Part shown: positions 18,209 to 53,300 of the stretch, piece after piece
How positions within the stretch are numbered: position 1 is the stretch's first letter
Layout of the letters: the number at the start of each line of letters is the position of its first letter
Source: a virus
Taxonomy: Duplodnaviria; Caudoviricetes
Strand: one strand, 5' to 3'
IMG/VR virus record: IMGVR_UViG_3300028591_000128
Coordinates: 1 to 64,000 of that record
DNA: 64,000 nt
Translations under genes and position numbers: made by a program
The notes under the pieces: generated by a model
Told to the model about the DNA's origin: nothing
Database searches by the model: none
Seen by the model: the letters and a program-made list of their open reading frames with translations, nothing else

Positions 18209-21200
18209 TTATGCTGTAAATATAAAGTCCATGCTTGATGTTGTATCATTATAACGTAATGTACAAGATTTACTTGTAGTAGTTTTACTACCAACTGCAA
18301 GATCTCCACCGACTCTAAAATGAGGAGATTGTTGCGTTGATGAATCAACATAAAAATATGTTCCCGTTTGAGTCGAACCATTATGAGCAACAAACCATTT
18401 ATGACTATAAGAAGATGGATTGCACCCTAACCACCATACATTATCTCCTGTACCAGAAGTAGAATTAGCTGCTCCACCCATAACAAAAGAACAATATCCA
18501 CCATTACCTCTATTAATACGAATACCTTCTGCCCATGAAGAGTTAGCTGAAGTTATACTGAGACATCCCGTCATCGTATCTCCAGTTTTACTTACTTTAC
18601 CACTGATATCTTGATGAGCAGTAAGTACTTTAGTTCCACCAGAATATAAACATCCGTCTGTTCCAACATATGCGGTATCTTGTGAATATGTCTGCGGATT
18701 AGCTGCTTGACTTGTCGCACCGATTAAAAATATCTTAGATGAAGTATCTGTAGATCCGGCAGTGTTTTTAGTGTCAGTATCTGTGAATTTTGCACCAGAT
18801 GGTACAGAAGTCGCTATTGTATAACCGCTAGACTTCATTCCTCCTGTTGTGCCATTAGTGATTACTACTTGACCCGATGTAGGTGTTGCAGTAAATTGCC
18901 CTATAGCATTCCAAGATGTATAAGTACCATTATTTTTTCCACGAAAATACAGATTCGGAAAATCACCCATACCCATGAACAATTCTCCATTATAATTGGT
19001 ACCACCACCCCAAGTAGCTGACAGTAACATACAACCATAACCACTTGTAGACAATCCTATATTAGAATTATTTGCCCTTGAGCAAAATGCTTTAACAGTT
19101 CCTGCCGAAGTCTGGCATACATAAGCCGTTCCTTCTTTATAAGTCGTGTCTTGATTCAATAATGTTGCACTATCTGCGTTTCCAGTCAAATTACCGCTAA
19201 ATGTACTTGCAACTGTTCCAGTGATAGTCATTGTACCAGAACCATTTATACTTATCTTCTGTGCAGTAGATCCACTATACGGAACAAGCTGTATTCCGGT
19301 AGCACCATTTAATCCCTTTACACCTAATGTACCTGCTACATTTATATCACCAATGGCTACATCATCACCTATGTTATTGTATGTATTATTAGCAGTATTG
19401 ATAGCACCAGTCAATGTCCCACCGGATTTCTTCAAATAGGTAGTATTTATAGCATTCCCATCGCTATCTTGTGTTGCTTTAGTTGCACTTCCTGCACTTG
19501 TCGCATAATTAACTGATTTATTTGCATCTGCTGTGTTATCTACATTTCCAAGACCTACATCGGATTTTGTGGGCTTATTGCTAGAATCAAAAATCTTTCT
19601 CCAACTTCCCCAAGTTGTTCCATTACTAGATCTTACATATAACGGTGTAGTCCTCTGATCTCCAGCATTAGCAGGGCCTGCGAGTTCCCATGTATTATAT
19701 GCATCCTCATTCCAACCTCTTACATGTAGCAAACTCCAAAAATTACCATCAGGCATGGATCTATTACTGAAAAAGAAATTAGATTGATATCGCATACAAT
19801 TTGTAGTTATATCTACGCTTCTAACATCATGCACGTGTATTCCACAAGTAGGTAACGTGCTTTGAGTAGAAGATCCGAGTTGTAATGTACCAGTTAACGT
19901 ACCACCTGCAAGTTTAAGATATGTAGACTTGATTGTATTCCCATCACTGTCTTGGGTTGCTTTTGTAGCAGAAGTTGCTGTTGATGCATTACCAGATAAA
20001 TTACCATAGAAACTTCCAGTTGCCTTAATATTTGGTGCTATAAAATATTCTCCACCTTGAGTACCATTTAGAGTAAGTGAAGCAGGTGATTGAACTGAAT
20101 CATAGTCAGTCCATGTCAGTGATCCACTCTGACTTCCATCTGCATTCTTGAATACTATTTTTGGGTTACTGTCTGCAAATGTACTGGATGCGACAGTTGG
20201 TTTCTGTATAGTAATATAATTATTTGTTTGAATATGATCTACTGTTATCTGATTTCCGTACCACCCACCGTAAGTTGGAACTTCGGTGTAATAAGCACCT
20301 GATGGACTATCAACTATCGCAATGGTTTGTGGCGTAAACGATGTATATATGGTTGCTGAAGTACAATCTGCATCAAATCTGAGATATACATCATCGCTAT
20401 TACTTATAACTTTATATACACCACTTAATCCTCTATGAGAATATACTTGACCATAGCCCCACCACTTAGTACCTCGTGAACCCGTGTACAATACATGACA
20501 TCCGACTCGATTATTTCCGCCAGTACGAATTTGAATTACTTCAATATGTGAATTCCAATTTGCAGTAGATACTTTTACATACCAAACTGTATCAGCAGTT
20601 GGTTGCGCTAATTGTGTGCTCGAAACGTATCTGTCATAATAAATATGATACCCGTCAACTTTATCAGCGTTATCGGCTGTACCTTGTAGATTTCCAATAA
20701 ACTTAGGTGCGGTTACACTCACTGGAAAACTTGATGTGCCATCTGTATTTAATAGCACTGCTTCTCTAGCAACAGCATTAGATGTATTATATTGGCGAAC
20801 TACTGTTTTTTCACAATTAGTCATTCCTCCGTCATCACCAGTTGCAATCTCTAGAACAGTATCTGACTCACCTGTCCCTGTAACTCTGATCCAACCAACA
20901 TCATAAAATGTTGCAGGATTGGATATAGCAATACCATCTTTGAATATTTCAGTAGTACCTGCCGCAAGACTTGTTACTTTCCCGGCAGATAGAGGCATTG
21001 ACACATTATTGTAAGCAATTCTTCCAGTAATCGTATCCCCCGCCTTATTCACAGGAGTATACCCTAAAGCAGTAGTAACATTAGAAGAAGTAAGCTCACT
21101 CCGAATAGTAGCAGAAGATTTGTTCTCAACATTATTGAGTGACATAGCGGTTTTCATGTTTGCAACAGTTGATTTTCTAAAATATCCGTCACTGTTTGCA

Positions 21201-24200
21201 TATATGATGAAACTATCTGAGGTAGGTGTTTCTGCACTACTACTTTGATTAAAATACTTTGCAAATATATAACCACTTGCAGTTCTTCTGGCTATTGTAT
21301 TATTTGATGCCGCAGTATCTGAAGCATAGCCATTTAATTTAGCGGAATCAGATGCAGTAGCTGCATTTCCGGAGATACTACCATTGATTGTGTTTAGGAA
21401 TCTAGCCGCTCCGGTCACAATGAGATTACCCACATTCGCTTCTGTTATACTCGCAGATCCTGTTGTAAGATAATTAGTGTCAAGATCATTTGTAGCAATA
21501 GCAGAAGAGGCAGAAACATTTGTGGTTGAAAGCGTTCCTGTTGAAGGATTGAATGTGAGGTTATTATTTTTCCTTGCTGTTTCCGTCCTCGTTGTATTAT
21601 CAGCAGTAGCAGAGAATAATACCTCATATGTAGCGTTTGTATTCGTTGCTGTTTGTGTTACTAAAGTGTCTGTATTATTATCACTCGGCATAGTAAATAT
21701 GTAGGATGTACCACCAGCAGTTATTGCATACTTACCGCCATGCGCAAGTGTGATCTGGTTAGTACCTGTAGATGTTGCAATCGAAGTTGCGTGAGTATGC
21801 CCACTTGTTGCATAAGCCGAGGATTCTGTATAAGCTGCGCTCTTTAATCCATGCACAGGAACGGATTGAGCAGATCCACCACTTGGTGTTACTGAGAATG
21901 CACCATTCGTAGATCCCTCTGCAAATGTGTAAGTTGTATTCGTGTTTGGATTCGCTGGCATCTTAATAGAATCTACAGCAAGTCCGGTTACATGCCCTTT
22001 AGCGTCTCGTTTAATCGTTACTCCGGTAACAAGAGATGTGGAATTCCATGTTGCTGCTGTGGTACTACTTGCATCTGCGTCCAACTGTGATCCGGTGTTT
22101 TCAGCAGGAGTGTAGTGATTACCTACAGCCGTAACTTTAGTATCTGTGTTTACGGTATATGTCGGTGCAGCCCAACTACCATCTTCCCTAAGAAATTTGG
22201 TAGACTGAGATTGACTTGATACTGCACTTCCTTTAGGTGCGACACCGGCAGAAGATGCGCTCACCTTTGGTATATTGGCAGTTACAGAAGCGGTATCACT
22301 ACCAGCTCTCGTAAGAGTCATCTTGACCGGACTATTTGCCGAAGCCGTTGTGTCATCCGCAAATGATGCAGTATTTACATACCTATCTGTGTTTGTTACC
22401 GTCTCTGTGGCACTTGCAATTCCAGTTACATGACCATATTCATCCAATGTAATATCTTGGACATATGTACGACCAGAGTTATTAACGCTTGCCTGACTAC
22501 TTGTATCTGCGTGTGATATACTAACTTTATTTCCCGTAGCATTAAAGGATACAGTAGTAGCACTTCCGTTCACAAAATCAATAGCACCGGAAGAAATGCC
22601 TGTGCCAAGCTTCTCTGTACCATTGATCTTAATATTTCTCCATGTATCTTCCACATCATCGCCAGAAGGTATATATACCCATTGATATGCAGAATCTATT
22701 TTGGTACTGACAAACATATCTCCGACTTTAGCAGCTTGAGAAGCATACGTGCCAGCCGTGATTACCTTGTAAGTCCAACCCTCATTAGAAGATGAAGCCG
22801 TTGGGAGAGAAGTAATAGTACCATTTGTACCAAGCGTTCCCTTAAATATCATTGGCTCCGGTAAGTTATCTATCGCAGTTGAAATTGCAGATGCTACCGC
22901 TCCAGATGTAACCAAGTCACCACTTCCACTCGTTACAGATGTGGTAAAGTTTTTCGCAGCCGCCGTACCAAGACCAGTTACTGCAATAGTCACCTTATCA
23001 TTGGTTGCATCAGGTGTTAGGCTGATATTACTACCGGCAGATAACTCCAATGTATCCGTCTTTCCATCAGCAGCGATAGTCGTAGTACCAACCTTTACGT
23101 TGCTGAAAGCGTTTTGGTTAACTTCCGCACCGCTTGCTATTCCAGCAAGTTTACTCTTTTCCGTAGAAGTGTAGTTGTTATCCGTATGAACGTAACTTGC
23201 ATCAGATACATAGTCACTGTCATTTGTTAAGTCACTCGTTTTGGTAGGAACAGTAACATTGACTGCCTTGTTTGCATCCGGAGTAAGTGCAGTACCATTC
23301 ACCTTTACTGATTCAATAACATTAACATCTGCACCAGCTTCAACGCCATCTAATTTCTTTTTGTCATTTGCAGACATCAGACCTGATTTTGATTGTGTCG
23401 CATCAGCAATACTCGGAGTAACCTTTACTGTCTGTTTAGATCCACCGCTTGGAGTTACTGAAAACCCATTAGTACCATTTTCAAATGTGTATGTGGTATT
23501 ATTGTCCGGTACCGTAGCGGTAGACAATACATTACCATTCTTGTCTTTCAGCTGCAGAACATGCCCATCAGACGGATTCTGACCAAGGCTTGTCGCATAG
23601 GTTGTCCGAATGTCATCTCCATCTTCATCGGCAGTTGCGGAATCTGCATGGGTAGCATTCGGGACAGTTATACTGATGGGCGAACCAGAAGACGGTGTTA
23701 ACACTATCTTCCCAGTTGCAGGATCTGCTGAAAGCGTATAAGTAGTATCATTGTCGGGAATAGTAATAGTAGTGTCATTTCCATCACTGTCATGTAAAGT
23801 AAATTTATGTTTATCGGTTGAATCCTGAATAAGTGTATAGGTGGTATCTTTTGCAGAGAACACTACACGATCTGATACTGCTGTTGGAGTAAGTGTTATG
23901 TTGTCTCCTGCAACAATACTGAGTGTGTCTGTTTTACTATCTGCGGATAGGGTGGTGACAGTCTGTCCTTGAGTTACTTCGACAGCACTGAATGCAAACT
24001 GATTGACTTCAGCGCCACTTGCCACACCATCCAGCTTTGTCTTATCTGACGCTGACATTAAACCAGACGCAGACTGTGTAGCATCCGAAATAACGATGTC
24101 AACATCATAGGTGTTTCCATCGTTATCGGTTATAGTTATTATGTTTGGGTTTGACGGATTACTGGAAATAGTGATATCTTTTTGACTGAATGTGAAAGTA

Positions 24201-24331
24201 TCACCATTTCTTTTTGTTGCAGTAAATGTATTTCCGCTACGGCTTATACTCGCTATAGCGGAATTATCCTGTACATAGTATTCTGAACCATCTGGGAGTT
24301 GTAGTTCACTTAGCTTTTGCATATCCGGCAT
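18209..24331 (-). CDS. Long tail fibre protein (2040 aa)
   Basis: Repeats GLMSASDKTKLDG, GAEVNQ.AFS, ATKATQDSDGN.I, VGLGNVDNTAD; T/S/G-rich. Confidence 0.85.
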   Translation of the reverse strand: MPDMQKLSELQLPDGSEYYVQDNSAIASISRSGNTFTATKRNGDTFTFSQKDITISSNPSNPNIITITDNDGNTYDVDIVISDATQSASGLMSASDKTKLDGVASGAEVNQFAFSAVEVTQGQTVTTLSADSKTDTLSIVAGDNITLTPTAVSDRVVFSAKDTTYTLIQDSTDKHKFTLHDSDGNDTTITIPDNDTTYTLSADPATGKIVLTPSSGSPISITVPNATHADSATADEDGDDIRTTYATSLGQNPSDGHVLQLKDKNGNVLSTATVPDNNTTYTFENGTNGFSVTPSGGSKQTVKVTPSIADATQSKSGLMSANDKKKLDGVEAGADVNVIESVKVNGTALTPDANKAVNVTVPTKTSDLTNDSDYVSDASYVHTDNNYTSTEKSKLAGIASGAEVNQNAFSNVKVGTTTIAADGKTDTLELSAGSNISLTPDATNDKVTIAVTGLGTAAAKNFTTSVTSGSGDLVTSGAVASAISTAIDNLPEPMIFKGTLGTNGTITSLPTASSSNEGWTYKVITAGTYASQAAKVGDMFVSTKIDSAYQWVYIPSGDDVEDTWRNIKINGTEKLGTGISSGAIDFVNGSATTVSFNATGNKVSISHADTSSQASVNNSGRTYVQDITLDEYGHVTGIASATETVTNTDRYVNTASFADDTTASANSPVKMTLTRAGSDTASVTANIPKVSASSAGVAPKGSAVSSQSQSTKFLREDGSWAAPTYTVNTDTKVTAVGNHYTPAENTGSQLDADASSTTAATWNSTSLVTGVTIKRDAKGHVTGLAVDSIKMPANPNTNTTYTFAEGSTNGAFSVTPSGGSAQSVPVHGLKSAAYTESSAYATSGHTHATSIATSTGTNQITLAHGGKYAITAGGTSYIFTMPSDNNTDTLVTQTATNTNATYEVLFSATADNTTRTETARKNNNLTFNPSTGTLSTTNVSASSAIATNDLDTNYLTTGSASITEANVGNLIVTGAARFLNTINGSISGNAATASDSAKLNGYASDTAASNNTIARRTASGYIFAKYFNQSSSAETPTSDSFIIYANSDGYFRKSTVANMKTAMSLNNVENKSSATIRSELTSSNVTTALGYTPVNKAGDTITGRIAYNNVSMPLSAGKVTSLAAGTTEIFKDGIAISNPATFYDVGWIRVTGTGESDTVLEIATGDDGGMTNCEKTVVRQYNTSNAVAREAVLLNTDGTSSFPVSVTAPKFIGNLQGTADNADKVDGYHIYYDRYVSSTQLAQPTADTVWYVKVSTANWNSHIEVIQIRTGGNNRVGCHVLYTGSRGTKWWGYGQVYSHRGLSGVYKVISNSDDVYLRFDADCTSATIYTSFTPQTIAIVDSPSGAYYTEVPTYGGWYGNQITVDHIQTNNYITIQKPTVASSTFADSNPKIVFKNADGSQSGSLTWTDYDSVQSPASLTLNGTQGGEYFIAPNIKATGSFYGNLSGNASTATSATKATQDSDGNTIKSTYLKLAGGTLTGTLQLGSSTQSTLPTCGIHVHDVRSVDITTNCMRYQSNFFFSNRSMPDGNFWSLLHVRGWNEDAYNTWELAGPANAGDQRTTPLYVRSSNGTTWGSWRKIFDSSNKPTKSDVGLGNVDNTADANKSVNYATSAGSATKATQDSDGNAINTTYLKKSGGTLTGAINTANNTYNNIGDDVAIGDINVAGTLGVKGLNGATGIQLVPYSGSTAQKISINGSGTMTITGTVASTFSGNLTGNADSATLLNQDTTYKEGTAYVCQTSAGTVKAFCSRANNSNIGLSTSGYGCMLLSATWGGGTNYNGELFMGMGDFPNLYFRGKNNGTYTSWNAIGQFTATPTSGQVVITNGTTGGMKSSGYTIATSVPSGAKFTDTDTKNTAGSTDTSSKIFLIGATSQAANPQTYSQDTAYVGTDGCLYSGGTKVLTAHQDISGKVSKTGDTMTGCLSITSANSSWAEGIRINRGNGGYCSFVMGGAANSTSGTGDNVWWLGCNPSSYSHKWFVAHNGSTQTGTYFYVDSSTQQSPHFRVGGDLAVGSKTTTSKSCTLRYNDTTSSMDFIFTA

Positions 24332-30038: not shown

Positions 30039-30396
30039 GTTTGATGCCTATGTAATGTTACATGTCGTAAATTCAAATCCTTACTATTGACAAATGTATT
30101 TTATGTTTGACACCTGTGCAATTTCATAGTCTACCAAAACGGATACGCCTAAACCGTACGCTAGTTTGACACCTATGCAATTTCATAGTATATCAAAACC
30201 TTTGATGATTGAATAGCGTCCAACCTTAAGTTTGACACCTGTGCAATTTAACATGTTATCAAAACTCTGATAGTAGATCAATTTCCATTGTCCACGTTTG
30301 ACACCTATGTAAATTCACAGTATACCAAACTGTATAAGAACTCAGCTGCAAGTATCCTATGTTTGATACCTATGTAATTTCGCACTGTATCAAAAC
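30039..30396 (-). CRISPR. CRISPR array A: 6 repeats, 5 spacers
   Basis: 35-36-nt repeats (plus strand GTTTGACACCTRTGYAATTT....TATCAAAAC) starting at 30039 (degenerate), 30105, 30164, 30230, 30296, 30361; spacers 30, 23, 30, 30, 30 nt. Confidence 0.92.
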
Positions 30397-30510
30397 CTCA
30401 AATCACACATGTATTCAGTTTTGATAACATATTTTACAAAGGCTTGGTGAGTGCGTTACGACTAAATCTGAGTAAAGTCTACCTCACCATAAGGTTGTCA
30501 AATCAACCCC
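30397..30510 (-). ncRNA. tracrRNA-like module A plus leader ending ATTTGAG
   Basis: 5' hairpin GGTTG-ATTTGA-CAACC, GGTGAG/CTCACC stem, anti-repeat GCCTTTGTAA..ATGTTATCAAAAC. Confidence 0.8.
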
Positions 30511-30558
30511 ATATATAAATATTTAAATTTTAATTGTATGTAACAACATATTCTTCTG

Positions 30559-32031
30559 GTGAACTCTCCACCACCTATAGAGGCTGGTGGCTTCGTAAGA
30601 AGGTTGATATTTAAGTTTCCACCTAAAATTAGGCAATCCTTATTCTTACAGGCGTGTCCACTTCGCCGCTACCGTATAGGACTGTTAAATCCACAACGCT
30701 ACTTTTTCTTAAAATATTCAACGCACCATTGACATCTGCGTTAAGTAATATTCCGTCAGCAGTTTTGTACAACCCCCTGCGTACACGTGTTCCGCTGAAT
30801 TCATATGACTGCGGATTATCTGCATTGTATACGGGGATGTTATCATGATCCCAGAATGATGCTTGTGAAGTATAGCTTTCTTCTTGCTTGACAAAAATAA
30901 TGCTGTTCAGTTCACAAAGATATTCCAGTTTGGAACGCAGTTTACCATATGGAATATTGACAAAGTTCTGATTGTTACGCTTGTCCATACTAGAATTACG
31001 TTGAAATGTTTCATTATATCCGATTACAAGCGTTCCAATATCATGAGCAATACAATAATTAGTAATTTTTCTTGCAGTTTTGCTCATATAATCGTTGACT
31101 GTTCTGTTTCTTTTATCAGCTAAGATTTTCTGACGATTTGTTGTTCTTCTTTTATCACCCTGTCTGTATTTGATACATTGCAGCCGTGCATTTTCTTTGT
31201 TGAACCATTGATTGATAGATTTAAGTCTTCTCCCATCAATAATGAATGATCTGCCAGTGCTTGATACTGCGGTTACAAGATTATTCACACCTAAATCCAA
31301 AGCAAGTGCATTGTTTTTATTAAGATTTCTTTGAGTACATTCAGTTTCGTAAGTATACTGAATTTCAAAGAACCTTGCTTCCGATTTTGGAATGATTCTG
31401 ATTTCCTTGATATGCTTGTCAGCAAGTATCGGCGGCATTTTGATTTCAACAGGCTTGTGTGTTTTCCTGAATGCATTGGAATATGGAAGAATCAGTTTGT
31501 TCCCATTCAATCGGACAAATCCTATCACGAGTGTTGTGAATCCGTCTTTAGGAAGATACTGTGGTAATTTACAGTCTCTAAAAGAATATTTTCCTTTTTT
31601 CGCAAGTTTCAGCAGTCCGAAAAAACTTTTGAACGATCCGTCTACTTCTTTCAAAATCTGCTGTGCCATATTAGAGTTGAGCATTTTGTAATTTGGACTG
31701 TCTTTCAGCAATGCATAATTCTTTTCGTATTTCAGATATTCTCCTTCTGTGAAGTAATACTGACGGACATTGTAAATTGCTTCATTAGCAAGGTTTTTTG
31801 CTGTGTGGCACAATTCTCTCAAAATGCCGTATTCTTCTTTTGACAGATGTTTCACTTTTTGCTTTACCGTTAGATACATAGTTTTCCTCCTTCCTTTTAG
31901 ATTTAGGACATTTTCCATGTATCTATTACAACATACATTTTACTGATTGTCAATAGTTTCAGTAAAAACAATCTGCATTCATCCACCACTTTTGCTTTGC
32001 TTAGAAGTGGTGGTATTCTGCCGAAAATTGG
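30559..32031 (-). mobile_element. IS200/IS605-family (IS1341-like, tnpB-only) insertion sequence
   Basis: Left-end hairpin CCACCACTT...AAGTGGTGG near TTTAT; right-end hairpin CCACCA..TGGTGG ending GTTCAC; removal restores ATCAGAAGAAT, also seen upstream of module B. Confidence 0.8.
30629..31879 (-). CDS. tnpB: RNA-guided endonuclease TnpB
   Basis: Start MYLTVKQ after AGGAGG; RuvC-I LALDLGVNN, QEESYTS (rearranged RuvC-II Glu), RuvC-III NADVNGALNI. Confidence 0.92.
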   Translation of the reverse strand: MYLTVKQKVKHLSKEEYGILRELCHTAKNLANEAIYNVRQYYFTEGEYLKYEKNYALLKDSPNYKMLNSNMAQQILKEVDGSFKSFFGLLKLAKKGKYSFRDCKLPQYLPKDGFTTLVIGFVRLNGNKLILPYSNAFRKTHKPVEIKMPPILADKHIKEIRIIPKSEARFFEIQYTYETECTQRNLNKNNALALDLGVNNLVTAVSSTGRSFIIDGRRLKSINQWFNKENARLQCIKYRQGDKRRTTNRQKILADKRNRTVNDYMSKTARKITNYCIAHDIGTLVIGYNETFQRNSSMDKRNNQNFVNIPYGKLRSKLEYLCELNSIIFVKQEESYTSQASFWDHDNIPVYNADNPQSYEFSGTRVRRGLYKTADGILLNADVNGALNILRKSSVVDLTVLYGSGEVDTPVRIRIA

Positions 32032-32057
32032 ATAAAGTGTAGCACACTCTGTTTTCT

Positions 32058-32799
32058 TTTTGATACCTATGTAATTCCATACCTAAACAAAACATTATTC
32101 CAAGCCAATTAAATCATCCTCTCATTTGACACCTATGTAATTTAATCATCAATCAAAACTTCTGATAAATATGCAGTTGGTGGTCATGATTTGATACCTG
32201 TGTAATTTCATAGTTTATCAAAACTATAACGTATTACCATTGAGTTTGACTATGTTTGATACCTATATAACTTTGCAGTCTGTCAAAACCGGTATCTTAC
32301 CTAAGCCGTTTTCCACAGGTTTGATGCCTATGTAAACTCACAGTCTAACAAAACCAAGATGTTCCTGTCGATGCCATCAAGGAAGTTTGACATCAGTGTA
32401 ATTTCATAGCCCAACAAAACTGATAAGCAAATAAGACGAAAATGCCGCTCAGAGTTTGACACCTATGTAATTTCACAGTCCAACAAAATCCTCAGACAAA
32501 TACCTGTTCGACACCTGTGTAATTTCATCGTCTACCAAAACTCCACAATGATTGACTTGAAATACCCCTTCGTTTGACACCTGTGTAACTTCATGGTTCA
32601 ACAAACCGAACCGCTATCCAAATTACGCTTAGTTTGACACCCGTGTAATTTCACAGTTCATCAAAACAACATATGCATGGGAAATGGAGCCGCCAACGTT
32701 TGACACCTGTGTAATTTCACAGTTCAACAAAACGAATATGCGCTGGAACAGTTCTATCAGAAAGTTTGACACCCGTGTAATTTCACAGTCCAACAAAAC
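32058..32799 (-). CRISPR. CRISPR array B: 12 repeats, 11 spacers
   Basis: Repeats (plus strand consensus GTTTGACACCTGTGTAATTTCACAGTYCAACAAAAC) at 32058, 32124, 32189, 32254, 32319, 32385, 32454, 32506, 32572, 32632, 32698, 32764; spacers 30, 29, 29, 29, 30, 33, 16, 30, 25, 30, 30 nt. Confidence 0.95.
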
Positions 32800-32910
32800 C
32801 TCAAATCACACGTATTCAGTTTTGACAGAGCATATTTACAAAGGCTTGGTGAGTGTGTTATAGATTGGATGTTCAATCATACCTCACCTTAAGGCCGTCA
32901 AATCGGCCCT
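32800..32910 (-). ncRNA. tracrRNA-like module B plus leader ending ATTTGAG
   Basis: 5' hairpin GGCCG-ATTTGA-CGGCC, GGTGAG/CTCACC stem, anti-repeat GCCTTTGTAAAT..CTGTCAAAAC. Confidence 0.8.
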
Positions 32911-32976
32911 GTATATTAAATTTTATATTTGAATTTAACAGATTCTTCTGATTTTCATACACCTCCAGGGCCAGTG

Positions 32977-33125
32977 GTTTGATGCTTATGCTATCCATAG
33001 TTTCAACATTTGACACCTATGCAATCATGATAGTTGAATCATGTAGGATTGCAAGAGCTTAGTGAGTGTGTTACAGACAATGCTGAGACCATCCTGCCTC
33101 ACTTTACGGCTGTCAAATCAGCCGG
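32977..33125 (-). ncRNA. tracrRNA-like module C with fused repeat end and one degenerate repeat
   Basis: GGCTG-ATTTGA-CAGCC hairpin; followed by ATTGCATAGGTGTCAAAT (ends 33008) and a degenerate repeat at 32977-33007. Confidence 0.7.
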
Positions 33126-33147
33126 TTAGTATAATAACAATTCTGCC

Positions 33148-33274
33148 GCTTGATATCTATGTAATTATCTGTATTCCATCAATAACTTTGATATCTACTT
33201 AGACATAGACTCGGTGAGTGCGTTATAAGCAAGAAAAATCTGCTATGCAACACCATAAGGCTGTCAAATCAACC
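33148..33274 (-). ncRNA. tracrRNA-like module D (overlaps the cas12f stop codon) with one degenerate repeat
   Basis: GGTTG-ATTTGA-CAGCC hairpin; anti-repeat TCTATGT complementary to ACATAGA in the repeat at 33148-33186. Confidence 0.65.
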
Positions 33275-34603
33275 AATTACCGTCATATTTTTAGCCTTAT
33301 TATAGGCATGACTTATCGTTTTACCGCAATGAGGACAAGTGAATGATACTTCCTGTGTCCACTCGAATACCTTCGGAATGACTTCTTCTGTACAGAATAC
33401 TTCTCCACATGAACTACATACATTCCGGACTGTCCGAAGAACATCAGTCTTTTTATCTGTCTTATCAGCCATCTTACTTGTGGTTACAACAATACCCTCA
33501 CGTTCTGCCTTATAGGTAATGAACTGCACCAACTGATAATAAGACCAATTCCGGAGCAATACCGGGTAATCATCAAGATCAGACTTCGTTACGTCTTCTA
33601 CAACGATAGCTGATACTTTATTCTCCTTTGCAAACTCTACAACCATTTTACTAAGATTATGGTTATATGTCTGCACATAATTCTTCTCGTAAGATTTATG
33701 TGTTTCAAGTTTTGCCAACTTCTTTCCACGACCATGCCCACCATTGGAATACTTTAAAGCTCTCTGAAGATTCTCAAAGTGGATCTGAATGTCCTTGCGT
33801 TTTGCTACAAGATCATTCTTTATTGATCCACCAATCTCATGTTCATCATCATCTGTAGAAAGTGCGGCAACAAGACATTTATCATATCCAAGAGCAAGTC
33901 CCATGATCTTACCATGTTCAGGTATATATTCTTCTGCATCCTTCTCAATCTTAACGGAAAGATTTAAAATTATCTTACCTTTGTTCGTGATTTGAATCGT
34001 GCTACCACAAACCTTATAATGTTCTGGATCGGTTACAATAGATTCCAAAAGTGATGGAAGGAACTTATCCGGACTCTTATTCTTACCTGCACCAAGATAC
34101 AGCTTGAAATGGATTCCGTTTACAAACTTAAAGAAATAGGCATTTACTGTCTTTTCCGTTCCATCATCTGTAGTGTATGTATCATCACCAGTATAAATAG
34201 TAATGAATCTGCTTGGAACCATAAGTGGGAAATCTCTTTTGTAAAATGGTAGATTCCGCTCACCCTTTGCAAGTCCATTCCTCAATGCTATGGAGAAATC
34301 CTGCTTTACTTTCATACCACAGTTACCAGCCATACCCAAACCCTTTGCCTGTTTCATATCATATATGGCGGTATTTGTGTTCCGGAAGATCATCTTCATC
34401 TCTTCCTTGAAGTTCGGATCGTTGAAATTCTTATCATACTTATAATACAGGCATCCAACCTGTGACATATAAGTATTCAAGATACAATACTGATTGTAGA
34501 TCCCATCACGAAGGTACTGATATACCCTATCCCGTTCTTCTTTATCACCTACCGGGAATAACTGAATCTTCTTCGTTGTGATTGTAGTTGTTTTCTTCTG
34601 CAT
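33269..34603 (-). CDS. cas12f: Cas12f1-like (type V-F) effector, predicted nuclease-dead
   Basis: Family motifs YLRD..YNQY, NGL.KGER....YKRDFPL, GGHGRGKKL, TYNH.LS..VV.FA, LRNWSYYQL...I.YKA.REGI and CxxC/CxxC; RuvC-I reads GLALG (normally GVDLG) and RuvC-III reads SHAYNKAKN (normally NADYNAARN). Confidence 0.88.
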   Translation of the reverse strand: MQKKTTTITTKKIQLFPVGDKEERDRVYQYLRDGIYNQYCILNTYMSQVGCLYYKYDKNFNDPNFKEEMKMIFRNTNTAIYDMKQAKGLGMAGNCGMKVKQDFSIALRNGLAKGERNLPFYKRDFPLMVPSRFITIYTGDDTYTTDDGTEKTVNAYFFKFVNGIHFKLYLGAGKNKSPDKFLPSLLESIVTDPEHYKVCGSTIQITNKGKIILNLSVKIEKDAEEYIPEHGKIMGLALGYDKCLVAALSTDDDEHEIGGSIKNDLVAKRKDIQIHFENLQRALKYSNGGHGRGKKLAKLETHKSYEKNYVQTYNHNLSKMVVEFAKENKVSAIVVEDVTKSDLDDYPVLLRNWSYYQLVQFITYKAEREGIVVTTSKMADKTDKKTDVLRTVRNVCSSCGEVFCTEEVIPKVFEWTQEVSFTCPHCGKTISHAYNKAKNMTVIG

Positions 34604-47326: not shown

Positions 47327-50300
47327 TTATGATTGTGATCCATTTCGGATTCTAAGACCTGTAATTGTTACATCTTCCATATTGGATACAGTAAGGAAGA
47401 ACTCCCAATTTGTATTGTTTTTAGGTAAGAAATCAGTATTGTTATGGTTCAACTCCGGTGTAGTTGCTAATAGTGTGTTGTCTTTATAGAATTTTAGCAC
47501 AAGTTTACCATTAGCACCTTCATCAGATTCAATCTTGAATGTAGAATTTGCAAAATAAGTTAAACCTTCTACACCTAAACTAACAAATCCTGCGTGTTCT
47601 ACCGTTGGGTTAAATGTATACCAATCTGCACTAAATCCCCATTGCCCGTAATCTTCATCGGCAGTTATGAACCCAATGTACTGACTAGCATCACCTATAA
47701 GATTTCCAATGATCCAAGAATCTGCCCAATCACGGTGATACATTGTGCAATCAGTTACATCAAATTCTACTACTGTACCGGGAACGAACAAGGTTGCAGG
47801 TACACATATGTTTTTGCCATCAGCATCCTGTATACGAATACCTGTACCTTGCACCCACTCACCTGTAGCAGGTGTTGTAGTGTTATCTGCAAATGTCAAG
47901 TTTGCAGACTGTTCAGTATCAACAAGACTAGATGTAAAATCCCAATTGTATGTCCAACTTGTTGATGTAGGTACAAATGTACCGAAAGTTGAAGTTCTCG
48001 GTGGTTTGTTTACAAGTATAGGTGTAGTTACATTCTGACCACCTATAGAATCAGTACGTGTTCCATTTGTTCCGAAGCAATATGCATCGTATTCTTCCCC
48101 TGCCTGATCATAATAATAAGGATAATTTGCTTGATCAATATGGACTACTTGCAAACCTGTTGTATCCCAAGTACCTCCACTCCAATTTGGAAATCTGTAA
48201 CCTTGCTCAAATGCATGGTATGTTTCATTACCAACATCATCTAAGTTAGATGCACACATTCTAGTAAAGTCAGAAGAATAATTAATAAATATCCAATGAT
48301 CTAATGATGAGAAGTCTAGTACACCTGGCATCGGACGATCATGACCTGAATAATTCTCTACATCATTAGGTTTGTAGAACATTTCAGAAAAATCTGTAAC
48401 ATCATGCACATCCCAAGAAGATAAATCTACATTTATGAGATAATGTAAATTACTAAACATATTGGACAATGATGCATCATCAATATACCAATTACGTGCA
48501 ATAATTGTTTGGAACTTCGGACTATCATTTATAATATCTGAACCAGTAAATCCGAATATTTCAGATAAACTTGTATGGTCTCCAAAACGTATGGTCATGT
48601 TGTTCCATACAAGTTTATTTATATCTGAGTTTTGGAAGAAATCTGTGTAACATCCTTCGCCATGACTTAAACTCATTCCATGACTATCAGGTAGTATCAG
48701 CACAGAGTGATCACTTACTGATCCGAATGAAGCACTTTCAAACATACTTGATAGGTCAGTAGATTCTCCAATGTTCCAAGAACTCATGTCAAATATGTAT
48801 CCATCATATTCTTGCGAATATGTACTAGGAAGAATTGCGTTTTTGAACATTGAATCACATGTGAAGTAACCGTTATCATTAATCCATCCATCAAAATCAG
48901 TGCTAGAGTAATTATGTAGATCACAACCTTCGAACATTCCAGAAACAGATTCTATAGAATTTATGCTCCAGTTACTAAAAATTCCTGATGGGACTTTACG
49001 ATGTTCACCAGTATATCCATAACTGAACATGAATTCAAAATTGGTTACTCTACTTACATCCCAGTTTTCTAATCCATGAACCTGTAATAATAAATCAGCC
49101 AGTGATTGCGAGCTAGTTGCAAACATGTACGACATATCTGTAACACTACTTGTATTCCAGGATGAAGTGTGTAAATCATTATAGAACTCTTTAGTGGATT
49201 CAAACATATGGGACATATTCGTAACATGACTTACATCCCAAGATGATACATCCCCATATACAACTGCACCACGGAACATGTTCTCCATAGTGGTGACACT
49301 GGAGGTATCAAGATAAGATATATCTACATAAGTATCACAATCTTCAAACATACTCTCCATAGTTGTTACATTAGATGTATCCCAATGTAGCTCCGCTTGT
49401 GACCCCTTGTATTCTTTGAATGTACTATTCATGTACATAACATTTGAAGTATCTAGATGTTCAGGAATAGGTATATCCGAACCCTCAAATGCATAGTTCA
49501 AATTTACAAGTGAATCTAGTTTCAAGTTGGATAAATCATCACCATAGAAATATCCTGTGTAATCATATTGGAATATTCCACTCATGGTAGTTACATTTGC
49601 TGTATCCCATTCCCTGATACCGTATATGCAATGTATGTGGTCCATACTCGCAAAGGTATTGGATAGATTTGTTATGTTCTGAGTACTCTCCATATCAATA
49701 CCCAGGTATTTACATGGGTTATCAGCAAACAGATTCTCTAATGATGTGAGATTATACGCATCCCAATTTCGGAATGAAATAGTTTCTGTACCATTTATTG
49801 CTGCAAGTATGTCCTTGAAATTCTGCAAGTTAGTAAATTGCAACGGTGTATCACAATAATAAAGCCCATCGTCATAGTACACGTAAGTAGTAGGGTCAGT
49901 TGTATCTAATGATTGAGCATGCATTCTGAATTCTTCAGCAGTTTCACCAATGGACTGGGGCTCTTCGTAGTAGTAAGACTCACTATTTTCAGGTAAGTGA
50001 TACTCCAGTACAGCTGTATCATAACCTGTTTCAAGTGGTAAGAACCTATAAGCACTACTAGACGCAGATCTTAATTGATTGATACCACTGGAACTTAATG
50101 TGACGAATCCAGAAGGTGTAGCAGGTGTAAATGTTCCAAATCCAGAACCAGCTTTCGGTTCAGCAATACCTTTACCATATGGATTAAATGCGTAATATGG
50201 GTAATCAAACTCCCCAGATTCATACTGAGATAATCCAGTCCTATCCCAAGTACCATTCCAATTTGGGAATCTATAGGTGTTCTCACAAGGTTTTTCGTTG

Positions 50301-53300
50301 AACCAACAGCAAGGTACAGGATAGCCATTACCATAATAGTCCACATCATCCTCAGTAGCATCCGGATCTGAACAATGTAGCACGGATCCGCACATCTCAT
50401 AGAAGTCTACACCACTAGAAATATCCCAATCATCCAATGATGAGTAATCAATGATACCAGGAGATGGACTAGCCTCATCAGGTTCTAGAGCTTCTAATCT
50501 ACTAAACATTTGCCGGAAGTTAGTTATGTGTGATACATCCCATCCAGATAAATCTATTGCACATAACTTACGCCAACGTGTGAAGAAATTAGATAAATCT
50601 GTTATAGATGGATCAAATGTCCAGTTTTTAGCTTCAAAGTAGTATATATGATTATCTGCAAAGAATGCTTTTATCTTATTCAATGTAGATACACTGTCAA
50701 CATGTATGTTATTCAGCACCACTTTAGGTACGCTACATAGATCCATTGCATGTGAATAATATGTTAAATTGCTGAAATTAAATGTTGGCAATTTAATATA
50801 GAAGTTATCAGGATGTTCTACATTTAATGGAACTGCATAATATCCAGTGTCTCCTACATAAACATCCTCTGAATATGCTGGATGTATATCATCATCTTCA
50901 TAGCGTGAATAATGGTAGTAAATAGGTTTAGATGTAAATCCGTGAAACATGTGTTCTACATCTGTCACATTCCGTACATCCCATTCAGAAAGATCTAATG
51001 GTAAACAAATACCTCTAGCATCTGCAAACATGCTATTCATATCTTGTGCAGATGAACTTACTTTCATAGAGGAGAAATATCCAGTCTCATATTCAGATGT
51101 TGGACTGACCCATGCAGATAATGAATATGCACCTCCAGACCCATATGCTGATATACTATGTGTATCTGTATGAGTATCATAATCATCTCGTACATATACA
51201 CTCTGTTTACCTAGAACACCCTCAAGCATGTGGCTGAAGTTTACACCACCAGAACAATCAAGGTTCATCAATGCAGCACTAGCTGATGGTAACTGATAAA
51301 ACGCATAAGAAAAATTGGTTACACTACTTACATCCCAGTTTATCGCATAACCTGTATATGCGTGTGGAACATAACCATTTGTCAACGCAAACGTGTAAAA
51401 ACCATATGCAGATTCATAATCCAATTGAGATAATTTGTCAGTTTGATAGAACATGCCCTCCATATTTTCAAGATTGGGCGTACAATCATAGTCATCTGCA
51501 TAGAAGTTTATGAAAATGGAAGAACCATCATATCCAGTTATACTACTAAACATGTAGGATGTATCTGTAAGATATGGAAATCCACCATTGGAATTAGCAT
51601 AAAGTGTTCCAGGACTCGATCCAGCATTTATATCTGCACCATCAAACATATGTGACATACTAACTGCGTATTTAGCAAAATCATATTCGTAATCATATAG
51701 CTGTACATAAGCTATAGTAGAATGATAGAACATGTAAGATGCATCTACTTCACGATTGAATGTAAACCATCCGGAATTGATACTATCTGCATCAATGTTT
51801 GCAAGCATATATGTTGCATCTATAGGATATGCTGATTCATGAGTAGAAGATCCAAAAATGAACTTCGCACCATTCACCAAATAATATCCCGAATGAGTAT
51901 ATATACCAGGGTTAGCACCATCAAACATATGACTTACATTTTCAACATTTGGTAATTCCACTGGATCAGATCCATATATATTAGAGAATTCACCATTAAA
52001 TTCGGAAAACATATATGATGCGTCTGTTACGTTTGCCAGTACATCCATGAATGCGGAATGACCCTCTGGGATTTCGTATACGCTTCCATTGAAGATTCCA
52101 TCAAAAGAATCTACACTACCTTGGAACATCCCTTTGGTAGATGTTACATTTACTGCGGAATCTATTCCAAATAACTGCCATGTAGTATGTACATGATATG
52201 CAGGATCAGCATTACGTCTAGTAAGTTCAGTAGATTCTCTAGATGCAAATAAGTAATCCATATTAGTTACTCTAGAATAATCCCAATCCAATAAATCTAC
52301 AAACAATTCATTTGGATTATCTTGCGGAGATAAACAAGTGTAAAATGCATTCATGACCGTATGGATATTTTCATCATCTAAGAATCCGATTGGAGTTGCC
52401 TCACAAGTGTAGAATATCTGATCTGATAATGTTGTAGTTCCTGAGTGCTCCCAATCCCCACTTACTGCGTATATAGGATATTCGTCCATTGATGTAGGAA
52501 TTGTAGATGTTGGATATTGCTTAATTTCTGAAGCATCAATGTAATCAGTAGTATTGGTGAAGTCTCCACCTATGTAGTACCCAGAGTAATATCCAGTTTC
52601 CGGATTGTATAATTGAACGATGCGTCTGAGCTTAGGAGTATAGTATCCTGAAGATGGTAATAATTCTGCGAAGTCATCAGCATATTCATTTGGAAGATAT
52701 GTGTAATCAACTCCATTAAAATGCCATTTAGTCATATCCTGTGTAATCATTGTAAGATTATAGAACGGATCTGTAGTTCTTGTGCTATAGTTTACTTCAC
52801 CTTCAGCAGTCCACCAAAATATTGTTTCTGTGTCATCTTCATTTGTAACAAAATCAAGATACAGATTCTCTTCCGTACTAAATACAGTAGGGTCAACAAG
52901 ATAACCTCTTTTCTCATCTGCCTGTTCAAAATAAACAGAACGACTACGAGAAGGAAGTTTCTCCAAGAATATTTTATTTAAAGCTCCAGAACTTGTTGCT
53001 CCTGTTGTAAGATAGAAATCATGATATGCAGGAGGCTCTGGAACAGGTTCAATGGAACCTTTTAGGAATTCGTTGATGCTTCCTATCTGTATCTTCCATA
53101 CAACTTGTACAACTTGATTTGTTCCAACTTTTAGTATGTTCTCTTTGAGGATCTTCCTGTTTTCTGGAACAGTCATATCCCAGTTAGATTCATTTGGAGG
53201 ACCGATTCTATATCCTGCAAGAAGTCCATTTTCACTACCAAGTTGCCAAGTCTTTTTCGACCATAGACCTGCTTCTGTAATGAACACATAATCTTTACCT

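What the first reader, a model, noticed from the sequence alone, without database searches (positions are those of the whole stretch)
30397..33274. Four tandem tracrRNA-like modules with compensatory base changes serving one effector
Seen on the minus strand: four copies begin with a hairpin around an invariant ATTTGA loop: GGTTG/CAACC (30510), GGCCG/CGGCC (32910), GGCTG/CAGCC (33125) and GGTTG/CAGCC (33274). Each then has a GTG...TAACRCACTCAC motif and an anti-repeat. The loop TTTGA is complementary to the repeat 3' end TCAAA, as in the Cas12f pseudoknot duplex. Anti-repeats track their local repeats: A ATGTTATCAAAAC vs GTTTTGATAACAT; D TCTATGT vs ACATAGA; C TTCAAC vs GTTGAA. From memory, module B resembles the start of the OsCas12f1 scaffold (AGGGCCGA...CGGCC...ACACACTC); this needs verifying. 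Typical type V-F loci have a single tracrRNA.
Basis: partly seen in the sequence, partly recalled or inferred. Interest (0 to 1): 0.85.

Follow-up and report, generated by a model that had tools for sequence, protein, structure and literature searches.

The report
Four guide-RNA scaffolds, one dead Cas12f
A large phage carries a miniature CRISPR protein (Cas12f) that has lost its cutting residues, together with four diverged copies of its helper RNA: two head small CRISPR arrays and two are already fused to a guide, a layout that recurs in related phages and shows one protein running several guide sets.

Summary
On the minus strand there are exactly four homologous about 84-nt RNA scaffolds: A 30510, B 32910, C 33125, D 33276. 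Each has a 5-6 bp hairpin around an ATTTGA loop, a GGTGAG/CTCACC-closed stem 2, and then an anti-repeat. Covariation supports all three helices, in the paralogues and in 52 homologues. The hairpin loop co-varies with the last five bases of the local CRISPR repeat in at least nine codes in fetched loci, plus RhCas12f1, which supports the pseudoknot.

- The closest characterised system is RhCas12f1, not OsCas12f1.
- The effector (444 aa) has lost both RuvC aspartates, as has its whole clade.
- The copies are not strictly tandem. A and B each head a degenerate array. C and D are fused, sgRNA-like units, and D overlaps the cas12f stop codon. A TnpB insertion sequence splits the locus.
- Orthogonal channels are not supported in this window, because all four copies share one loop code and B pairs equally well with both arrays. 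Relatives do carry two or three cassettes with different codes.

Two or more scaffolds occur in 34 of 53 related viral loci and in all 8 dead-clade loci examined. This scan had already noted similar two-cassette phage Cas12f loci on other DNA. Guide targets remain unknown. I found no paper describing this layout.

The parts
33269..34603 (-). Cas12f-family effector, 444 aa, naturally nuclease-dead (A237 and A433 in place of the RuvC-I and RuvC-III Asp; E336 and the zinc finger are kept)
   Evidence: Pfam Cas12f1-like_TNB, 3.7e-07. Best PDB match is 9nzp_A (RhCas12f), 1.7e-49. Alignments show D to A at both sites. Single copy in the record.
33194..33276 (-). Module D scaffold: hairpin 1 (GGTTG/ATTTGA/CAGCC) overlapping the cas12f stop codon (33271-33269), then stem 2
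   Evidence: Model R1 72.6 bits, E 5.9e-15. In the orthologue in L010 hairpin 1 changes on one side (G:U to A-U), and one stem-2 pair changes on both sides (GGTG/CACC to GATG/CATC).
33148..33193 (-). Module D anti-repeat joined by a short loop to a truncated repeat that ends TCAAGC (fused, sgRNA-like)
   Evidence: The MFE fold gives a third long hairpin and a free 3' tail. TCTATGT pairs with ACATAGA.
33126..33147 (-). Guide slot of D (22 nt); also the AT-rich stretch just upstream of module C
   Evidence: Conserved with 3 changes in L010. A promoter-like hit on the minus strand lies at 33159-33131. No target was found.
33042..33125 (-). Module C scaffold (GGCTG/ATTTGA/CAGCC; stem 2 AGTGAG/CTCACT)
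   Evidence: R1 83.3 bits, E 1.3e-17. The closing pair of stem 2 is A-U here against G-C in A and B.
32977..33041 (-). Module C anti-repeat fused to a truncated repeat (ends TCAAAT at 33008), followed at once by a degenerate 31-nt repeat (33007-32977)
   Evidence: Fold. This stretch differs by indels among the three sister phages, while the scaffold is conserved.
32800..32910 (-). Module B: scaffold, a 29-nt anti-repeat, then a linker ending ATTTGAG directly before the first repeat
   Evidence: R1 93.5 bits, E 4e-20. Duplex with repeats -11 to -25 kcal/mol.
32058..32799 (-). CRISPR array 1: 12 non-identical 36-nt repeats and 11 spacers of 16-33 nt
   Evidence: Three spacers are shared with sister phage L011 with 1-2 point changes.
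30559..32031 (-). Inserted IS200/IS605-type element with tnpB (ORF 31918-30629, 429 aa), placed after TTTAT (32036-32032). Not part of the system.
   Evidence: Pfam OrfB_IS605 5e-27. No similarity to the 444-aa protein. Absent at the same place in L004/L011. The left border is inferred.
30397..30510 (-). Module A: scaffold, a 28-nt anti-repeat, then a linker ending ATTTGAG
   Evidence: R1 92.3 bits, E 7.9e-20. It pairs better with array 2 than with array 1 (-17.2 against -13.6 kcal/mol).
30039..30396 (-). CRISPR array 2: 6 non-identical 36-nt repeats and 5 spacers

Best explanation
This is a phage-borne type V-F-derived guide-RNA locus. One Cas12f-family protein is served by four paralogous tracrRNA-type scaffolds that arose by duplication of whole scaffold-plus-repeat cassettes.

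Shown by covariation: each RNA, read from the minus strand, folds into hairpin 1 and stem 2.

Supported by complementarity and covariation:
- The sequence right after stem 2 pairs along the CRISPR repeat.
- The hairpin-1 loop (UUUGA) pairs with the last bases of the repeat (UCAAA), just 5' of the guide, forming the pseudoknot core known from Cas12f and TnpB RNAs.

Modules A and B sit where a leader would and head arrays. One transcript could therefore give a cis-paired first guide, plus tracrRNA for the other repeats in trans. Modules C and D have the anti-repeat joined to a truncated repeat by a short loop, so they would be natural single guides. D starts inside the last codon of cas12f, like an omega RNA.

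Inferred: the protein lacks two of the three RuvC carboxylates, across its whole clade. The complex most likely binds DNA without cutting and blocks transcription or replication of its targets, as Cas12m, TldR and dCas12f do. Four copies would give more scaffold per guide and separate promoters. In this window they do not form separate channels.
For: - Homology and number. Four R1 hits and no others in the 106-kb record.
- Structure, paralogues. In 11 paralogues and orthologues, 91.8% of cells are paired, 12 of 20 pairs have double changes, and 0 of 500 shuffles reach this.
- Structure, homologues. In 52 homologues, 95.6% are paired against 71% in shuffles. The covariation score is 0.50 against 0.14 shuffled and at most 0.055 with slid partners.
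- Strand. G:U pairs are frequent, and nearly all hits lie on the cas12f strand.
- Pseudoknot. Loop and repeat end match in nine codes in fetched loci: TTTGA/TCAAA, TTCAG/CTGAA, CCTTT/AAAGG, TTTTG/CAAAA, TTTTA/TAAAA, TTTCG/CGAAA, TTTAC/GTAAA, TTTCA/TGAAA and CCTTG/CAAGG. RhCas12f1 has ATTTA/TAAAT. The match sits at the repeat-spacer border: upstream identity is 0.45-1.0 and downstream 0.2-0.4.
- Anti-repeat. Duplexes span repeat nt 1-29 at -15 to -26 kcal/mol. Across 21 cassettes, cognate pairing averages -10.3 and non-cognate -6.1 kcal/mol, with 0 of 5000 permutations as good.
- Fused form of C and D.
- Effector. RhCas12f is the best PDB match. D to A at RuvC-I and RuvC-III, shared by homologues of 37-81% identity.
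- No adaptation genes. No Cas1 or Cas2 in the record. Spacers are inherited with point changes.
- Layout conserved. All 8 dead-clade loci examined have 2-4 modules.
- Published background. Stem 1, the pseudoknot and stem 2 form the conserved Cas12f/TnpB RNA core (PMC12255294).
Against: - No expression data.
- The promoter scan is at chance level.
- No guide target was identified.
- Repeats here are unusually heterogeneous.
- The guide slots of C and D are short or repeat-like.
- D's stem 2 has two non-pairs, and sister phage L011 lacks D. Some copies may therefore be decaying.
- One RuvC glutamate remains, so residual nicking cannot be excluded.
- Binding of these RNAs by the protein is untested.
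Confidence: 0.72

Rival explanations
1. Only A and B are working tracrRNAs. C and D are decaying leftovers of cassette duplication with no present function.
For: - The stretch after C differs by indels among three sister phages and holds a repeat-like sequence where a guide should be.
- D's stem 2 has U:U and U:C non-pairs.
- L011 has a single D/C chimera instead of two modules.
- No targets were found for the C and D guide slots.
Against: - The C and D scaffolds score E 1e-17 and 6e-15 against the model.
- Between the window and L010, D shows one paired change in stem 2 and a G:U to A-U change in hairpin 1, while the scaffold stays far better conserved than the flanking mini-array.
- Fused first units followed by normal arrays also occur in relatives with intact Cas12f, for example L012 at 6312.
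Confidence: 0.2
2. The four scaffolds form orthogonal channels: each tracrRNA loads only its own array.
For: - Relatives with one Cas12f carry two or three cassettes whose loop/repeat-end codes differ. L012 to L017 have TTCAG, CCTTT and TTTTG.
- Cognate anti-repeats pair better than non-cognate ones across the family.
- Module A prefers array 2.
Against: - All four loops in this window are ATTTGA, and all repeats end in the same code.
- Module B pairs as well with array 2 (-17.7) as with its own array (-16.3 kcal/mol).
- In relatives the same spacer occurs in arrays of different code.
Confidence: 0.1
3. The repeated units act only at the DNA level, as duplicated CRISPR leaders or promoters, or as ends of degenerate IS elements, and not as structured RNAs.
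For: - A and B lie exactly where leaders lie and end in ATTTGAG, a conserved type II-A leader-end motif (PMC5382924).
- An IS with tnpB sits in the locus.
Against: - Compensatory and G:U changes keep three helices on one strand only.
- The loop and anti-repeat co-vary with the repeats.
- Module A keeps the same upstream sequence in L011, which has no IS.
- The leader role is compatible with the tracrRNA role rather than an alternative to it.
Confidence: 0.03

Closest known systems
RhCas12f1 (type V-F1) with its tracrRNA:crRNA (Kong et al. 2023, PMC10090079; structure 9NZP, PMC13186708)
   Same: - Best solved relative of the effector (E 1.7e-49).
- Its tracrRNA opens with the same hairpin (CGGTTG, loop ATTTAG, CAACCG), and the loop matches the repeat end TAAAT.
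- This is followed by a xxTGAGG...CACTCxx stem 2.
   Different: - Rh has an intact RuvC and is described with one tracrRNA.
- Rh has two further stems between stem 2 and a short anti-repeat.
- Here the anti-repeat follows stem 2 directly and runs along almost the whole repeat.
- Here there are four copies, two of them fused to a repeat.
dCas12f-sigmaE RNA-guided transcription systems of Bacteroidota (Hoffmann et al., PMC13472631; PDB 9N9C)
   Same: - Nuclease-dead Cas12f homologues.
- Several scaffold copies per locus. Three copies spaced 207 nt apart were seen in L119.
- Single fused guides thought to derive from repeat-spacer units.
   Different: - No sigma factor gene was found among the eight nearest ORFs.
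- The protein keeps its C-terminal zinc finger rather than being truncated.
- Split tracrRNA plus true arrays are present.
- Phage and Firmicutes setting.
- The PDB match is only 7e-17.
Cas12m (type V-M) and TldR: binding-only RNA-guided repressors on plasmids and phages (PMC11013384, PMC11656645, 10.1101/2023.11.30.569447)
   Same: - RuvC-inactive TnpB/Cas12 relatives carried by mobile elements.
- They silence targets by binding rather than cutting.
   Different: - Different protein clades.
- Cas12m uses no tracrRNA.
- TldR uses one omega-type guide.
- Neither is known to have several co-evolving tracrRNA-array cassettes.
TnpB omega RNA (reRNA)
   Same: - Module D begins inside the 3' end of the protein gene.
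- D is a single RNA with scaffold, pseudoknot partner and guide slot.
- The stem 1/pseudoknot/stem 2 core is shared.
   Different: - No transposon ends or TnpA are associated with it.
- The scaffold also exists in split form with arrays in the same locus.
Two-cassette phage Cas12f loci noted earlier in this scan (e1-5779118, e1-5758342)
   Same: - One phage Cas12f with more than one paralogous tracrRNA-array or fused-guide cassette.
- The loop matches its own repeat. I saw the same in L012 to L060.
   Different: - Those that I checked encode a catalytically intact Cas12f.
- This window has four copies, a dead effector and a single loop code, with both fused and split forms side by side.

Membership tests
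Type V-F (Cas12f) tracrRNA | Encoded next to a cas12f gene and a CRISPR array | tested here: met
   D, C and B lie between cas12f and array 1. A lies directly before array 2.
Type V-F (Cas12f) tracrRNA | Anti-repeat complementary to the CRISPR repeat | tested here: met
   Co-linear duplex over repeat nt 1-29, at -15 to -26 kcal/mol. Cognate pairing beats non-cognate across 21 cassettes.
Type V-F (Cas12f) tracrRNA | Conserved RNA core: stem 1, a pseudoknot with the repeat 3' end, and stem 2 | tested here: met
   Helix covariation. Loop/repeat-end covariation in at least nine codes. The core is as described in PMC12255294.
Type V-F (Cas12f) tracrRNA | Expressed as a discrete RNA and bound by the effector | not testable with these tools
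There is no Rfam family for Cas12f tracrRNA.
Type V-F CRISPR-Cas12f nuclease system | Effector with the intact RuvC triad D-E-D | tested here: not met
   A237 and A433 replace the two Asp residues, and only E336 is kept. The same loss is seen in homologues of 37-81% identity.
Type V-F CRISPR-Cas12f nuclease system | Adaptation genes cas1 and cas2 (present in many, though not all, V-F loci) | tested here: not met
   No Cas1 or Cas2 match in the 106-kb record, which is about 71% complete.
dCas12f-sigmaE activator system | Operonic ECF sigma factor (rpoE) next to dcas12f | tested here: not met
   No sigma-factor domain in the eight neighbouring ORFs scanned. The wider record was not scanned for rpoE.
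dCas12f-sigmaE activator system | Single chimeric guide RNAs with no tracrRNA | tested here: inconclusive
   C and D are fused forms, but A and B are split forms with arrays.
TnpB omega RNA | Scaffold overlaps the 3' end of the nuclease gene, and the guide abuts the transposon right end | tested here: inconclusive
   D overlaps the stop codon, but no transposon ends are present. The real IS in the locus has its own, unrelated TnpB.
Type II-A-style CRISPR leader | Leader ends in ATTTGAG directly before a 36-nt repeat with about 30-nt spacers | tested here: met
   A and B end in ATTTGAG before GTTTTG... repeats. The motif is named in PMC5382924. The role of host adaptation proteins is untested.

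The most novel reading that the evidence does not exclude
A lineage of large phages uses a nuclease-dead Cas12f as a heritable, multiplexed silencing device. Several independently promoted tracrRNA-guide cassettes supply vertically inherited guides against host or rival-element genes. One guide gives a borderline match inside an AbiL-type abortive-infection operon of a Lachnospiraceae genome. Cassette duplication, followed by co-evolution of loop, anti-repeat and repeat, generates new and eventually orthogonal guide channels. In the same locus, tracrRNA and crRNA are found both split and fused, so the split/fusion transition between omega RNA and tracrRNA:crRNA can be observed directly.
Probability: 0.25. 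Interest if true: 0.85.

Novelty: new variant of a known kind. Interest (0 to 1): 0.62.

Why it matters
Characterised Cas12f systems are described with one tracrRNA. Here one effector has four co-evolving scaffolds, and relatives have up to three mutually distinct loop/repeat codes.

- This gives a natural set of compensatory variants that defines which RNA contacts matter in Cas12f guides. It also suggests ready-made orthogonal scaffolds for compact editors or CRISPRi.
- Fused and split forms sit side by side next to a gene-overlapping copy. This bears on how omega RNAs became tracrRNA plus crRNA, and how they collapse back again.
- The loss of both RuvC aspartates across a phage-associated clade that keeps its arrays points to phage-run, RNA-guided silencing. 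The targets of that silencing are still to be found.

Tried and rejected
- Rfam: no family matches the scaffolds. The only hit is a chance-level RAGATH-20 match inside array 2.
- A sequence pattern for the scaffold in IMG/VR found only the two sister phages. L008 and L009 were chance hits in coding DNA.
- OsCas12f1 as the nearest scaffold: rejected in favour of RhCas12f1.
- TnpB (429 aa) as a second user of module A: rejected. It is unrelated to the effector, and module A stands without it in L004/L011.
- Orthogonality inside this window: not supported.
- The promoter and terminator scan was no better than shuffles.
- Guide targets:
  - No match beyond chance in the phage's own 106 kb.
  - None in INPHARED phages.
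  - None in 401 Lachnospiraceae genomes with either array, except one 25/26-nt match in an AbiLii-like gene of G002 (E 1.5e-4 per genome, about 0.06 after 401 genomes). Homologous genes in 24 other genomes match no better than 22/30, and no copy was found in IMG/VR. I treat this only as a lead.
  - A 19-mer of a conserved spacer hit 103 metagenome stretches. These are a common coding motif plus the arrays themselves.
- The short element ACGTGTGATTT in the A and B linkers is complementary to repeat nt 17-29, and it pairs with the first repeat in the MFE fold of B. It is absent from L063 and other cassettes, and I could not assign it a role.
Full report
**What is there**

The window is the first 64 kb of a 106-kb IMG/VR virus record estimated 71% complete. 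Reading the minus strand from 34603 downward, the order is:
- a 444-aa ORF (34603-33269);
- module D (33276-33148) with a 22-nt slot;
- module C (33125-33008) followed by a degenerate repeat;
- module B (32910-32800);
- array 1, with 12 repeats of 36 nt (32799-32058);
- a tnpB-carrying insertion (about 32031-30559);
- module A (30510-30397);
- array 2, with 6 repeats (30396-30039).

**Check of the observation**

The four hairpins, the invariant ATTTGA loop and the TAAC[A/G]CACTCAC motif are as described. The four copies align at 72% mean column identity.

A covariance model was built from the four copies plus their seven counterparts in two sister phages: L003/L010, and L004/L011 (a 253-kb phage). 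It finds exactly four matches in the whole record, at E 5e-21 to 7e-16. This is far beyond chance.

**RNA structure**

RNAalifold on the 11 copies predicts hairpin 1, a stem 2 closed by GGTGAG/CTCACC, and an inner helix. It gives 20 pairs, 12 of them with compensatory double changes.

Pair counts on the same alignment:
- 91.8% of cells are paired.
- No shuffle out of 500 reaches the observed covariation.
- Sliding the partners drops pairing to 35-46%.

On 52 model-aligned homologues from 33 sources:
- Pairing is 95.6%, against 71% in shuffles.
- 17 of 20 pairs show double changes.
- The covariation score is 0.50, against 0.14 in shuffles and at most 0.055 for slid partners.
- That alignment is fitted to the model, which favours the structure. 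The independent MAFFT alignment gives the same answer.

Frequent G:U pairs, and the fact that almost all hits lie on the cas12f strand, fix the transcribed strand.

**Pseudoknot**

In every cassette that has an array, the five bases after the first loop base are the reverse complement of the last bases of the repeat. I found nine such codes in fetched loci: TTTGA/TCAAA, TTCAG/CTGAA, CCTTT/AAAGG, TTTTG/CAAAA, TTTTA/TAAAA, TTTCG/CGAAA, TTTAC/GTAAA, TTTCA/TGAAA and CCTTG/CAAGG. RhCas12f1 itself has ATTTA/TAAAT.

The complement sits at the repeat-spacer border. Sequence upstream of it is conserved between units and sequence downstream is not.

Published Cas12f structures name stem 1, the pseudoknot and stem 2 as the conserved RNA core shared with TnpB (PMC12255294).

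**Anti-repeat**

The anti-repeat begins directly after stem 2 (GCCTTTGTAA pairs with TTACAYAGG of the repeat). It continues co-linearly to the repeat's 5' end, leaving two bases and then the pseudoknot segment.

Across 21 distinct cassettes, cognate duplexes average -10.3 kcal/mol against -6.1 for non-cognate ones. The cognate array ranks first in 11 cassettes, and none of 5000 permutations does as well. Some rows there are mis-assigned, because a module without its own array picked up the next array; this works against the result.

Inside this window, A prefers array 2 (-17.2 against -13.6). B does not discriminate (-16.3 against -17.7).

**Two forms of cassette**

A and B end with a 19-21-nt linker and ATTTGAG, then a full repeat. 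C and D have the anti-repeat joined by a 5-6-nt loop to a truncated repeat. They fold into hairpin 1, stem 2 and a long third hairpin, with a free tail ending TCAAAT or TCAAGC. These are single-guide forms.

D's hairpin 1 contains the last codon and the stop codon of the effector gene, which is the position of an omega RNA.

In L011 the first module has D's 5' arm and C's body. This fits unequal recombination within the shared GATTTGACAGCC.

**The effector**

Pfam sees only the Cas12f1-like TNB domain. The best solved relative is 9nzp_A at 1.7e-49, which is RhCas12f (PMC13186708). OsCas12f (9nzq) scores only 1.1e-10.

Alignments to RhCas12f, to 8hr5 and to a canonical homologue show Ala at both RuvC aspartate positions: MGLALG against GVDLG, and SHAYN against NADYN. 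The glutamate is kept. The same loss is seen in 28 homologues of 37-81% identity, so this is a conserved dead clade and not a recent accident.

No Cas1 or Cas2 is found in the record. Three spacers are shared with L011 with one or two point changes. The guides are therefore inherited, not recently acquired.

**The second ORF**

The 429-aa protein is an ordinary TnpB (OrfB_IS605, 5e-27). It is unrelated to the effector. It is missing at the same site in L004/L011, where array 1 runs straight into the sequence upstream of module A. It is an insertion, so one effector serves the four modules.

**Relatives**

- Of 53 related IMG/VR loci, 34 have two or more model hits.
- Those at 34-39% identity encode a catalytically intact Cas12f. 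They often carry three cassettes with three different loop codes around one gene.
- All eight dead-clade loci examined have two to four modules: the window, L010, L011, L063, and L287 to L290.
- The layout is therefore a lineage trait and not tied to loss of the nuclease.
- Bacillus-type relatives have one scaffold and no array.

**Comparison with what is known**

I found no paper describing several tracrRNA cassettes for one Cas12f. The virus-CRISPR survey of 2022 is not in the searchable library, so I could not check it.

Hoffmann et al. describe dCas12f-sigmaE systems with several fused guides. They also mention a separate cluster of dCas12f near arrays in Bacteroidota (PMC13472631). This is the nearest published analogue.

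This scan had already noted two-cassette phage Cas12f loci on other DNA.

**Function**

Targets are unresolved. One spacer (32123-32094) matches 25 of 26 bases, from its repeat-proximal end, inside the second gene of an AbiLi-type operon in a Lachnospiraceae genome. The 5' flank there is T-rich, and the single mismatch within the 26-nt aligned stretch is synonymous. After correction for 401 genomes the expectation is about 0.06, and no better allele was found. It is a lead, not a result.

Binding without cleavage is inferred from the lost aspartates and from Cas12m, TldR and dCas12f precedents.

**Verdict**

The finding is real and correctly read in its essentials. It is best described as a new variant of a known kind. 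Its mechanism is well supported at the RNA-pairing level. At the level of expression, protein binding and biological target it remains open.

Noticed in passing
window 33269-34603 (-): The Cas12f-family effector has Ala at both RuvC aspartate positions (237 and 433). So do homologues down to 37% identity, many of them on 70-160-kb contigs. This looks like a conserved nuclease-dead clade that keeps its CRISPR arrays.
   Followed up: yes
window 30559-32036 (-): An intact tnpB element (429 aa) is inserted after TTTAT, between array 1 and module A. It is absent at this site in the 253-kb sister phage (L004/L011). Its right end reads ...GAGTTCAC, followed by CAGAAGAATATG.
   Followed up: partly
window 32800-32806 and 30397-30403 (-); arrays 32058-32799 and 30039-30396: Both arrays are preceded by ATTTGAG and have 36-nt repeats starting GTTTTG with about 30-nt spacers. 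This is the signature of type II-A leaders and arrays (PMC5382924) and may mean that host II-A adaptation proteins can feed these arrays.
   Followed up: partly
window 32094-32123 (-); L143:1501-1526: A spacer matches 25 of 26 nt inside the second gene of an AbiLi-like abortive-infection operon in a Lachnospiraceae MAG. The 5' flank is TTTTTG and the single mismatch within the aligned 26 nt is synonymous. Statistically borderline.
   Followed up: partly
window 32058-32799 (-): No two of the 12 repeats are identical, and spacer lengths range from 16 to 33 nt. Related dead-clade loci (L287 to L289) have homogeneous repeats, so this array looks old or degenerating.
   Followed up: partly
L011:6328-6411 compared with window 33125-33276: The first module of the sister phage combines D's 5' arm with C's body. 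This suggests unequal recombination between tandem modules within the shared 12-nt GATTTGACAGCC.
   Followed up: partly
window 32801-32816 and 30398-30415 (-): The linkers of A and B hold a short element (ACGTGTGATTT or ACATGTGTGATTT) complementary to repeat nt 17-29. This is a second, competing partner for the first repeat. It is absent in L063. Its role is unknown.
   Followed up: partly
L012-L017 and L018-L060 (IMG/VR phages of 90-190 kb): These phages encode a catalytically intact Cas12f flanked by two or three tracrRNA-array cassettes with different loop/repeat-end codes. In some, the same spacer occurs in arrays of different code (L060 against L037 and L038).
   Followed up: partly
L063:3820-4110: Between the second and third cassettes of this Lachnospiraceae contig lie sequences that look like tRNA 3' halves (GGTTCGATTCC). 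They were not examined.
   Followed up: no
window 18209-24331 (-) and 47327-54283 (-): Two very long ORFs (2040 and 2318 aa). For the first, neither Pfam nor PHROGs gave an informative match. The second was not examined.
   Followed up: no
L080, L081, L084, L088 (Priestia, Bacillus, Ectobacillus, Paenibacillus): Shorter relatives of the effector are each followed by one scaffold of the same fold but by no array. These are probably TnpB-like elements with omega RNAs related to these tracrRNAs.
   Followed up: no
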